Source of the DNA: Octopus sinensis
Taxonomy: Eukaryota
Direction: 5' to 3'
DNA: 64,000 nucleotides
NCBI RefSeq assembly: GCF_006345805.1
Contig: NC_043004.1
Coordinates: forward strand, 57,722,001 to 57,786,000
Part shown: piece after piece, positions 5,381 through 8,296 of the stretch
How the letters are laid out: each line of letters opens with the position of its first letter
How positions within the stretch are numbered: position 1 is the stretch's first letter
The notes under the pieces: model-generated
What the model was told of the DNA's origin: nothing
The model's database searches: none
Seen by the model: the letters and a program-made list of their open reading frames with translations, nothing else
Program-made: the position numbers and the translations under genes

Positions 5381-5474
5381 ATCTTTCGAGTGTTGTATAT
5401 CCTACGGAGGCTGCATCCTTCACTGCTGCTATCTCGGCACAAACACGTGTATTCAGGCCTGAACAAACCAGGGT

Positions 5475-5871
5475 TTACTCTTTTACTCGTATACTTGTTT
5501 CAATCATTTGAATGCAGCCATGCTGGATCACCGCCTTTAGTCGAGCAAGTCGACCCCAGGACTTATTCTTTGTAAGCCTAGTACTTATTCTATCGGTCTT
5601 TTTGCCGAACCGCTAGGTTACGGGGATGTAAACACACCGGCATCAGCTGTCAAGCGATGCTGGAAGGACAAACACAGATACACAAACATATACACACACA
5701 TACATATACATATATATATATATACATATATACGACGGGCTTCTTTCAGTTTTCATCTACCAAATCCACTCACAAGGCTTTGGTCGTCCAGAGGCCATAG
5801 TAGAAGACACTTGCTCAAGATGCCATGTAGTGGGACTGAACCCAGATCCATGTGGTTGGTAAGCAATCTAC
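5475..5871 (-). mobile_element. SINE family 1, body and tail of a copy split by the 5872-8152 insertion
   Basis: Family 1 sequence stops at GTAAGCAATCTAC; the missing head resumes at 8153-8189. Confidence 0.9.
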
Positions 5872-8152
5872 GTTATTTAATAAAATTTGTCATTACAGAC
5901 AGTACAAAGAGTGTGTAGCTTTGCGGCTAGACAAATACATTAATGAATGAAAAATGAAATAAAATGAATAAATGAGAGACGAAACCCAACACCCGCCGAT
6001 TGGATTTTTCTCGAAAACATATTTTCTATTTTTAAATCAATATGAGGTTTCAAACCTCTTACAAGAAGGAGGCCCTAAAATCTCTTATTTAACATGTGTT
6101 TTTTTAAACACACAATTGAGGTTATAAACCACCACAAATAATACAATAAGATGAGGTTCCAAACCCTCTAACGAGGCTTTTTCACCTCCTACTCTTCGAT
6201 AAATCCATCGATATATTCATCATTATCTTCAATGCAGCTTGATTTCCTGTATCCCGCCATTTCTCTCGCCTCACTCATGTAGGACATGTAAGTCGTGTAA
6301 GGACCACCCGGCCATATGCGACACTCCTCCTCAAAACCTCTAAGCCTTTCTCACAAGGAAAACCTTATGACCTCCACAGCTATCTGCGTAGGCCATTCGG
6401 AATCCCGTGTGAAGAGCATATCTACTGTCTCTTTATGTTCTTCTACTATTTTTTCCACCTCCCGCCCTTGTAGAAAAAGATAATTAATTCATCATCTTTA
6501 AGGGTGGAGGTCGTTTCTTCCACCGTGGGTGGCACAACTTCGGGAGATGCAGACGGTACATCATCTCCCCTCTGCGATGACCCGTTCATCTTCTTTCTTT
6601 TTTTTCTTTTCTTCCTGACTGCGGGAGAGTGGAGTTCTTCCGCTTTGTCAGGAGTCTCTCCCCTGCCTCCCGAAGCCTTAGGTTCCTTCGGCGTGCAACT
6701 ATTGTTGCCCGCCTTCTTCCTTTTTAGTCCTTTTTGGGTTGAGGAGGCTGAAGCCTCCTCGACCACATCCACCACTCCCTTTGACTGGGTAGGAGAGGTT
6801 GCATCCAGTGACCGTTCCAGGACCTAACCATGGTCCTCGGGGTAGTTCCTTTTAATGTGGCCTGGCTGCATGCACGAGGACACATGGGAGGGCGACCCTC
6901 AAGTATCACTGGATACCTTGAGCCATCCATTTTTAAAAAGTCGGGGAAAGTCATTTCCCCCGCGGGCACTGGGATCCATAGGGTCAAAGTTGCCGTTGCA
7001 ACCTTCCAGTCGACCGCAGGCTTTATCTCTGTATTTAAAAGCCTGGGCCCGCTATCCCCCAGGCCCCGCCGGATGGCATCTGCAATCCACCCCGCTTCGG
7101 TGCCCGGGGAAAGACCACATACCCTTATCACCTTCTTCTCAGAATATGTGGGAAGAAACAAAATCTCCCCACCTTCCAGGGCCTGGCCTGCCACAGTGCA
7201 AGCCTCCTCAGGAGTGTCGAAAAGTAGCCACACCGTGGCGTATTTGACACCCCAGGTTATAATGTAATTTTTAACTGGCAAACATTTTGCCAGCTCTTTA
7301 TTAAGAAAACCCTTGTCGAAGAGGGCGATGGCGTCACGCGACCTAGAATAGGTCCGTAGTACCACCGTCCTTCTCTCAAGGCTTTCAATCCATTGCTTAG
7401 CTGGGACTACCTCCCATTCTAAGGCACTTTTTGCATTTGCTATGTTAAAAGTCAATTCAAAGAAGACGGAAAGTCCAAATAAATTAACAAGTCCCAAAAG
7501 AATAAACAAGTCAGTTCAAAAAATGCATAAAAAATAAAATTCAAAAGAAACGCAAAAACATCTCCAAAAAGAAAGAAAAAACAGAAGGATAGAGAAAAGA
7601 AAAACAGTTCACACAGGAAACATCAATGGCCAACAGGTACTCCTGGCCAACTTCAAGTTTCAATGGCAAAATCCAATAAGTTCGGAGGAAGATACGCCCC
7701 GACTTTTTTCCAATACAAAAAATAACAAACAGCAGCCCCTGACAGCAGGCAGAATTGCCACGGAGCTGAGCGAAATTTATCAACACACAATTACTATTTG
7801 ACAAATTACACCCAGCTCAAGCGAAAACAAATCCACCTATCTCTACGGTCTTATGCTGATGCTGTTCTTTTTTTTTCAGTTCAATATTGGACAGAACCAA
7901 CACACTCACGTCCACTTTGCAAAAAGAAAAAAATCCACTTTTTCTGGCGAGATACGACCACTAGAATTTACAAAAAGAATTTTCAAGCAAAAATTCTCAA
8001 TTCACCGTTATGGTAATAAGAACACAATATTTCGCGAGCTACAATTGACAATTTTTCTTTTTGGTCTTTTTTTTCTATTCACGGAGCCGAAACTCAAATC
8101 TTCTTACTGTAACAGTCCAGACCAACTAGTGTTGCATTCTGGGTAACCGGAA
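5872..8152 (-). mobile_element. Non-autonomous L1/Tx1-like retroelement encoding ORF1 only (HAL1-like architecture)
   Basis: 13-bp TSD GTAAGCAA(T/G)CTAC at 5859-5871 and 8153-8165; 5' end TTCCGGTT; about 700-nt 5' UTR; decayed ORF1; ATTAAA 4 nt before the 3' end; no room for an RT. Confidence 0.8.
6189..7443 (-). pseudogene. Decayed ORF1/gag-like protein, about 418 codons (RRM-like region, CCHC zinc knuckle, basic low-complexity linker, C-terminal region)
   Basis: VILEGRPPMC followed, after a 1-nt frameshift near 6879, by CxSCMQPGHIKRNY (CX2CX4HX4C with the last C mutated); second 1-nt frameshift in the A-run at 6449-6454; two internal stops; probable ATG>ATA at 7443; terminal TAG at 6191-6189. 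Confidence 0.75.
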
Positions 8153-8189
8153 GTAAGCAAGCTACTTACCACACCGCCAATCCTGCGCC
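8153..8189 (-). mobile_element. SINE family 1 head (A box) of the split copy
   Basis: GGCGCAGGATTGGCGGTGTGGTAAGTAGCTTGCTTAC on the minus strand. Confidence 0.88.
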
Positions 8190-8196
8190 TAGAGAG

Positions 8197-8296
8197 TATG
8201 GAACGCTTCACGAATTTGCGTGTCATCCTTACGCAGGGGCCATGCTAATCTTCTCCATATCGTTCCAATTTCAGTATATGTATTGCCCAAGCTAAC
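8197..8296 (-). pseudogene. U6: U6 snRNA pseudogene, near full length
   Basis: Minus strand reads GCTTGGGCAATACATATACTGAAATTGGAACGATATGGAGAAGATTAGCATGGCCCCTGCGTAAGGATGACACGCAAATTCGTGAAGCGTTCCATA; ACAGAGA box altered; no T-run terminator and no clear TATA box upstream. Confidence 0.93.

What the first reader, a model, noticed from the sequence alone, without database searches (positions are those of the whole stretch)
5872..8152. Apparently complete retroelement that encodes only ORF1 (a mollusc half-LINE)
Seen: 2281 bp bounded by a 13-bp TSD, with a long 5' UTR, a single ~418-codon ORF, a ~320-nt 3' UTR and a terminal ATTAAA. The ORF is recovered by fixing two 1-nt deletions and two stops, which restores CX2CX4HX4(C>Y) after VILEGRPPMC. 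No endonuclease or RT sequence is present. Established: EG(R/Q)P plus a CCHC knuckle is typical of Tx1/L1 ORF1, and ORF1-only HAL1 elements are known mainly from vertebrates. Inference: the clean TSD means it retrotransposed in this form, supplying its own RNA-binding protein and borrowing ORF2 in trans. I do not recall such a family described in cephalopods.
Basis: partly seen in the sequence, partly recalled or inferred. Interest (0 to 1): 0.8.

Follow-up and report, generated by a model that had tools for sequence, protein, structure and literature searches.

The report
SINE-targeting, ORF1-only half-LINE family
This 2.3-kb element is a decayed copy of a large family of jumping genes, likely in an octopus genome, that carry only an RNA-binding-type gene, sit at one exact spot inside a very common short repeat, and likely borrow their copying enzyme from a full-length retrotransposon found at the same spot.

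Summary
Window 5874-8152 (minus strand) is one decayed, recombinant copy of a multi-subfamily ORF1-only retroelement family of 1.95-2.3 kb. All 28 of 28 copies with a 3' end and 30 of 30 junctions picked without regard to flank lie at one position in the head of an abundant tRNA-like SINE, with a 15-bp duplication and no poly(A) tail. ORF1 (predicted two RRMs plus a CCHC knuckle) is under purifying selection in source elements (pN/pS about 0.25) and decays neutrally after insertion. Young subfamilies keep open 382-425 aa frames. An autonomous L1/Tx1-type LINE (intact copy L204) shares the site, the duplication and the 3' terminal motif, sits in tandem with these elements, and is the likely helper. 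Its ORF1 is only about 28% identical. Corrections: the TSD is 15 bp and family-wide, so it is not independent; ATTAAA is a mutated ATGAAATA; the start codon is lost. Trans-mobilisation is inferred. ORF1-only LINEs and target-specific Tx1 elements are each known; the combination, with a SINE as target, was not found in eight literature searches.

The parts
5874..8152 (-). ORF1-only non-autonomous retroelement, full-length, decayed, recombinant copy (2,279 bp)
8153..8167 (-). 5' copy of the 15-bp target duplication AAGTAGCTTGCTTAC (part of the SINE head)
5859..5873 (-). 3' copy of the target duplication (13 of 15 identical to the 5' copy)
7444..8152 (-). 5' UTR: about 226-nt tip of subfamily A1 type, then A2-type sequence
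6189..7443 (-). Broken ORF1, about 418 codons: start codon lost, two frameshifts (near 6880 and 6465), two internal stops; predicted two RRMs, CCHC knuckle, then a low-complexity basic region
6820..6950 (-). Approximate recombination switch from A2-type (5') to A1-type (3') sequence, at the zinc knuckle
   Evidence: median identity to A2 0.81-0.93 before and 0.41-0.59 after; to A1 0.46-0.75 before and 0.88-0.96 after
5874..6188 (-). 3' UTR ending in ATTAAATA (family ATGAAATA), no poly(A)
5888..5901 (-). Short 3' hairpin TGTC..GACA, shared with the autonomous LINE as TGCC..GGCA; putative recognition signal
   Evidence: one compensated pair, 13 of 28 rows; may be a single event
8168..8190 (-). 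5' head of the target SINE, upstream of the insertion
   Evidence: matches the heads of uninterrupted copies in the window
5474..5858 (-). Remainder of the split SINE, with internal (TA)n
   Evidence: 74-87% identical to other window copies over about 385 nt
8192..8296 (-). U6 snRNA copy abutting the SINE head; a neighbour, not part of the element
   Evidence: RF00026, 89.8 bits

Best explanation
This is a dead, recombinant copy of an ORF1-only retroelement family that sits at one fixed position in an abundant SINE and is likely copied in trans by an autonomous L1/Tx1-type LINE found at the same site. Shown: the family structure, the single target site, the 15-bp duplication, 5'-truncated and tandem insertions, purifying selection on ORF1, and a helper-type LINE with the same target and 3' motif. 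Inferred: a source element makes its own ORF1 protein (predicted two RRMs plus a zinc knuckle), which likely coats its own RNA. The helper's ORF2 would bind the shared 3' end, nick the SINE head with a stagger of about 15 nt, and reverse-transcribe from the nick (target-primed reverse transcription). The RNA likely carries a few target-like bases at its 5' end that help join the second strand. The duplication regenerates the site, so elements stack in tandem. Template switching between subfamilies would give mosaics like this copy.
For: Family: 1,889 candidates (40 scored) for the element and 11,475 (150 scored) for ORF1. Exact junction counts are 434 and 188 for one young 3' end, against 0 in reversed controls. 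Target: 28 of 28 copies with a 3' end (26 continue into the SINE, 2 into a tandem element; 2 of 30 loci lacked the 3' end in the match); 30 of 30; 23,992 exact empty sites. Independent insertion: 5'-truncated copies with the duplication at the same site (L049; L068, L070, L071, L085; L156), tandem arrays, and SINE variants shared by both duplication copies in L028 and L113. No ORF2: and 0 of 30 ORF2 hits against 27 of 30 ORF1 hits. Reciprocally, 30 of 30 endonuclease loci have the helper-type ORF1 upstream. Selection: private variants pN/pS 0.91 and 1.07; variants shared by three or more copies 0.24 and 0.25; Fisher p 5e-5 and 2e-9; A1 versus A2 dN/dS 0.31. Helper: L204 has ORF1 467 aa and ORF2 1,130 aa with Exo_endo_phos, RVT_1 and zf-RVT; best PDB match is human L1 ORF2p, E 2.7e-65. 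Helper and ORF1-only copies are both young: median 98.5% and pairs at 97-99%.
Against: No retrotransposition, binding or expression was shown. The helper's ORF1 is only 24-34% identical, and BLASTN finds no DNA similarity between the window copy and the helper copies; shared sequence is limited to a roughly 40-nt 3' motif and one 16-nt 5' tip. Descent from this particular LINE is therefore old or unproven. The hairpin rests on one compensated pair. The structure model is middling (pLDDT 64, pTM 0.43; best Foldseek E 1.3e-3; VIA Z up to 8.8). The endonuclease search returned the closest 30 of 7,061 candidates, so a diverged LINE with a HAL-type ORF1 is not excluded.
Confidence: 0.87

Rival explanations
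1. The family is ORF1-only and site-specific, but the real helper or parent is another, unseen LINE with a closer ORF1, or ORF1 is kept for a reason other than packaging its own RNA (for example, competing with the helper's ORF1).
For: The ORF1-only proteins form a clade on a long branch (1.44 changes per site, 100/100) apart from the helper's ORF1. Searches score only the best candidates.
Against: All 9 RT-type ends among 30 sampled junctions resemble family B (my reading of the BLAST table). Family B sits in tandem with ORF1-only copies, is equally young, and shares a 5' tip with subfamily A2 (16 of 16 nt).
Confidence: 0.07
2. One ancient insertion into a SINE was amplified afterwards as a composite SINE-plus-insert unit (hitchhiking), so the shared site is not targeting.
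For: Nearly all copies have the same flanks, and 5' junction variants track subfamily.
Against: Copies truncated at different 5' points, several divergent subfamilies and a separate LINE all use the same position with their own duplication. Tandem stacks of unlike elements exist. The 3' flanks carry different SINE variants.
Confidence: 0.03
3. This copy is a one-off deletion or premature-polyadenylation product of a full LINE.
For: Internally deleted LINE copies exist at the site (L055, L143).
Against: The ORF1-to-3'UTR junction is shared by dozens of copies, the 3' end is the family's own conserved terminus, and selection acted on ORF1 within the ORF1-only lineage.
Confidence: 0.02
4. A processed pseudogene of a host RNA-binding gene, or a gag-only LTR-type element.
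For: The closest database protein is annotated as an uncharacterized host protein (P0001); the CCHC knuckle weakly matches nucleocapsids.
Against: ORF1 is homologous to the ORF1 of an RT-encoding LINE (E 1e-9). P0001 falls inside the element clade. No long terminal repeats were found. Copies are 5'-truncated and site-specific.
Confidence: 0.01

Closest known systems
HAL1 (half-L1) of mammals (PMC5753468 and PMC5786205, passages read; Bao and Jurka 2010 not held)
   Same: Non-autonomous L1-group derivative encoding only ORF1p.
   Different: ORF1 here is Type I (predicted RRMs plus CCHC), not the coiled-coil/RRM/CTD Transposase_22 type. It is strictly site-specific, has no poly(A) tail, and is an independent origin in a likely octopus genome.
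HeT-A (Jockey clade) and Ag-Sponge (CR1 clade), listed as ORF1-present non-autonomous LINEs in PMC5786205
   Same: ORF1-only elements proposed to use a partner's ORF2; HeT-A forms head-to-tail arrays at a fixed target (PMC13534243, abstract listing only).
   Different: Different LINE clade; the target here is an interspersed SINE head, not a telomere.
Target-specific Tx1 elements: Tx1L (in Tx1D), Keno (U2), Kibi/Koshi (microsatellites), Tx1-Mar with SINEU (PMC4494074, introduction and passages read)
   Same: APE-type LINE with sequence-specific insertion into a multicopy sequence, including other transposons; a non-autonomous passenger shares the helper's target.
   Different: The target is a tRNA-like SINE head, and the passenger is a protein-coding ORF1-only element, not a SINE. 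In a sample of 30 junctions it outnumbers the helper about 20 to 9.

Membership tests
ORF1-only non-autonomous LINE (HAL1-like class) | Single ORF homologous to a LINE ORF1 | tested here: met
   24-34% identity to the ORF1 of an RT-encoding LINE, E 1e-9.
ORF1-only non-autonomous LINE (HAL1-like class) | No ORF2 between ORF1 and the 3' end in multiple copies | tested here: met
   1.95-2.26 kb copies; the only EN/RT hit in 82 loci is a tandem neighbour.
ORF1-only non-autonomous LINE (HAL1-like class) | Independent retrotransposition in this form (TSDs, 5' truncation) | tested here: met
ORF1-only non-autonomous LINE (HAL1-like class) | ORF1 maintained by selection | tested here: met
ORF1-only non-autonomous LINE (HAL1-like class) | Mobilised in trans by the partner's ORF2 | not testable with these tools
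   Only circumstantial: shared site, duplication, 3' motif, tandem arrays and age.
Mammalian HAL1 proper | Type II ORF1p (Transposase_22) derived from mammalian L1 | tested here: not met
   Pfam gives only weak zf-CCHC; the model shows two RRM-like domains. Works like HAL1 but is not a member.
L1/Tx1 group LINE (the helper) | ORF2 with APE endonuclease, RT and C-terminal zinc domain, closest to L1 ORF2p | tested here: met
   on L204.
Tx1 clade specifically (the helper) | RT phylogeny grouping with named Tx1 elements | not tested
   No named Tx1 references were among the hits. Type I ORF1 (PMC5203782, passages) and target specificity (PMC4494074) point to Tx1.
tRNA-derived SINE (the target) | tRNA-related head with A and B boxes | tested here: inconclusive
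   Box-like motifs are visible by eye (TGGCTGTGTGG, GGTTCAGTCCC; consensus recalled). ARAGORN found no tRNA and Rfam gave no tRNA hit. Identity with the published octopus OK/OR1/OR2 SINEs was not testable.

The most novel reading that the evidence does not exclude
An old, still recently active ORF1-only lineage and its helper LINE form an undescribed three-tier parasite system: both insert at a single position of a SINE head. The ORF1-only partner outnumbers the helper, keeps a selected ORF1 only about 28% identical to the helper's that it needs in cis to capture ORF2, shuffles 5' tips and ORF1 halves, and is transcribed from within the SINE so that its RNA carries a target-derived leader that is written into the 5' junction.
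Probability: 0.4. Interest if true: 0.8.

Novelty: new variant of a known kind. Interest (0 to 1): 0.63.

Why it matters
Why ORF1-only LINEs keep their ORF1 is open; the proposal in PMC5786205 is that it multimerises with the partner's proteins. Here a young helper with both frames open and young ORF1-only elements with open frames share one defined 15-bp site, which makes the question directly testable by insertion-site PCR. It also adds a SINE to the targets of sequence-specific L1/Tx1-type elements, gives an APE endonuclease with apparently strict specificity, and explains some 'uncharacterized' octopus gene models as transposon ORF1.

Tried and rejected
Pfam on the window's ORF pieces gave 0 families. 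The word-indexed protein search gave one hit. A sequence search of solved structures gave only weak knuckle matches. L027/L031/L032, first suspected as the autonomous partner, proved to be another ORF1-only subfamily. Helper 5' UTRs show no extended similarity to ORF1-only 5' UTRs. Expression: no RNA holder listed. The four runs laid are contigs, two only guessed to be RNA, so they say nothing on transcription; they cover 25-30 of 30 bins of L123 under four organism labels, but no piece spans the element. ARAGORN and Rfam did not name the SINE's tRNA source. No convincing TSD was found around the U6-plus-SINE unit. Scripts (tree display; TSD register off by one) had errors; the TSD was redone and a tree was built. 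Earlier-findings look-ups were empty. No complex was predicted.

Full report
Observation. The finding lies on the minus strand. The 13-bp repeat is present but belongs to a 15-bp duplication. Over 29 copies with both ends, agreement is 21-29 of 29 for 15 positions and 1-3 of 29 beyond. The element is 5874-8152. The terminal ATTAAA is a variant of the family end ATGAAATA, and no copy examined has a poly(A) tail.

A family. A DNA search of the own genome gave 1,889 candidates, 40 scored. Of 29 other loci, 17 carry both the same 5' tip and the same 3' end 1,972-2,088 bp apart; the rest lacked the tip in the fetched stretch or belonged to another subfamily. The 5' UTR found a second group, A2, with several alternative 5' tips. 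An ORF1 protein search gave 11,475 candidates, 150 scored. I hand-picked 20 rows of about 65% identity, mostly for long open frames. Of these, 17 were delimited at 1,953-2,263 bp, 16 had an open frame of 382-425 aa from Met, and several pairs were 97-99% identical. The intact fraction is inflated by that choice. RT and endonuclease queries hit 1 of 82 loci (a few are duplicates), and that hit is a separate LINE in tandem.

One target. All 28 of 28 loci with a 3' end are followed by the target; 26 continue into a SINE and 2 into another element. With a pattern that contains only element sequence (188 exact matches, control 0), the first 30 all continue into the same SINE position. The SINE is about 420 bp, has 11 uninterrupted heads in this window, and has 23,992 exact empty sites in the genome. 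Its tRNA origin is judged by eye from box-like motifs and was not confirmed. Hitchhiking is excluded by 5'-truncated copies with their own duplication at the same base (L049, L068, L070, L071, L085, L156), by tandem stacks, and by SINE variants present in both duplication copies (L028, L113). PMC4494074 uses truncated copies for the same test.

The helper. A different 3' end inserted behind copy L003 led to family B, full-length copies of 5.3-5.5 kb at the same site. L204 holds a copy with open ORF1 (467 aa) and ORF2 (1,130 aa) followed directly by an ORF1-only element. L143 holds ORF1-only, LINE, ORF1-only in a row, each separated by the duplication. ORF2 has Exo_endo_phos, RVT_1 and zf-RVT and is closest to human L1 ORF2p among solved structures (E 2.7e-65, against 6e-20 for R2). 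Of the first 30 of 434 exact junctions, I read 20 as ORF1-only type, 9 as B type and 1 as an inverted oddity. The two share a 3' motif with a 4-bp hairpin: 92.9% of cells paired, one C-G/U-A compensated pair in 13 of 28 rows, possibly one event. All 30 of the 30 best endonuclease loci have B-type ORF1 upstream, and B copies are a median 98.5% identical. Against a close relationship: the ORF1 proteins are only 24-34% identical, there is no BLASTN match between the window copy and B, and the ORF1-only proteins form their own clade on a long branch (100/100, 1.44, which warns that long branches meet).

ORF1. The model of L028's first 216 residues (pLDDT 64) matches tandem-RRM proteins (Foldseek best E 1.3e-3; VIA Z up to 8.8 for both halves), followed by a CCHC knuckle (weak Pfam). 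This fits Type I ORF1p as described in PMC5203782. In 28 A1 copies (361 codons), private variants give pN/pS 0.91 with 28 stops, and variants in three or more copies give 0.24. In 29 A2 copies (157 codons) the figures are 1.07 and 0.25. Fisher p is 5e-5 and 2e-9; A1 versus A2 dN/dS is 0.31. Multi-base codon differences were left out, CpG sites were not excluded, and some loci may be segmental duplicates. Named relatives come from Octopus and Argonauta (7 of 10 looked up carry a name), from which I infer an octopus host.

This copy. It is a mosaic: A1 5' tip, A2 5' UTR and ORF1 front half, A1 back half and 3' UTR, switching at the knuckle. I saw no second copy with the same mosaic among the roughly 60 loci.

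5' junctions. The 5' copy of the duplication carries subfamily-specific variants: GCTTCC in 7 of 10 A2a junctions and AAGTAGCTTCTTAC in 4 of 4 Y1 junctions, against 1 and 0 of 116 3' junctions and 0 of 31 empty SINEs. The simplest reading is that the RNA begins with target-like bases inherited from the source locus. An equivalent reading is a shorter duplication plus a target-like element tip. Either way the tip resembles the target. Co-transcription from the SINE is inference.

Mechanism, shown versus inferred. Shown: structure, target, duplication, truncation, tandem arrays, selection, and a co-located young LINE. Inferred from established LINE biology: target-primed reverse transcription by the helper's ORF2, recognition through the shared 3' end, cis packaging by ORF1, and template switching.

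Known systems. ORF1-present non-autonomous LINEs are HAL1, HeT-A and Ag-Sponge (PMC5786205, passages; PMC5753468, passages). Tx1 elements target Tx1D, U2, microsatellites, a Mariner and LTR elements (PMC4494074, introduction and passages). A curated Octopus vulgaris annotation lists L1-Tx1 families (PMC13282606, first third of the text); its one held supplement has no HAL1 or ORF1 entry. PMC4758252 and PMC8869645 were seen as passages only. Searches showed no description of an ORF1-only Tx1-type family or of a LINE specific for a SINE; most hits were seen only as listings. Bao and Jurka 2010 was not held, and Repbase, Dfam and bioRxiv supplements could not be searched, so prior description there is possible.

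Verdict. A real, well-supported new variant of a known kind; interest 0.63.

Noticed in passing
window 8192-8296 (-): A U6 snRNA copy is fused directly to the SINE head. Three of 8 U6 loci examined (including this one) are followed by the same SINE head and 3 others by a different repeat, suggesting U6/SINE chimeric retrocopies (674 candidates).
   Followed up: partly
L204:920-8610 (+): Autonomous LINE with both frames open, followed in tandem by an ORF1-only element at the regenerated site.
   Followed up: yes
L143 (minus strand), whole locus: Three-element stack in one SINE; the middle LINE has an internal ORF2 deletion and shares a 16-nt 5' tip with ORF1-only subfamily A2.
   Followed up: yes
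L079:1380-1545 (oriented): Two element 3' ends in inverted orientation between two SINE halves; unexplained.
   Followed up: no
L002 and L028, 5' junctions: Both lack the same first 10 nt of the A1 tip, at a TTAC/TAAC microhomology with the target.
   Followed up: no
L117, L121, L122: Three copies within about 20 kb with near-identical flanks, probably a local tandem duplication and not separate insertions.
   Followed up: no
protein P0001: A database gene model named 'uncharacterized protein' falls inside the ORF1-only clade, so it is probably an element copy annotated as a host gene.
   Followed up: partly
window 292, 10273, 10993, 13816, 14450, 24932, 25910, 26939, 34728, 36308, 37529: Eleven uninterrupted heads of the target SINE, with several subfamily variants at the target site.
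   Followed up: partly
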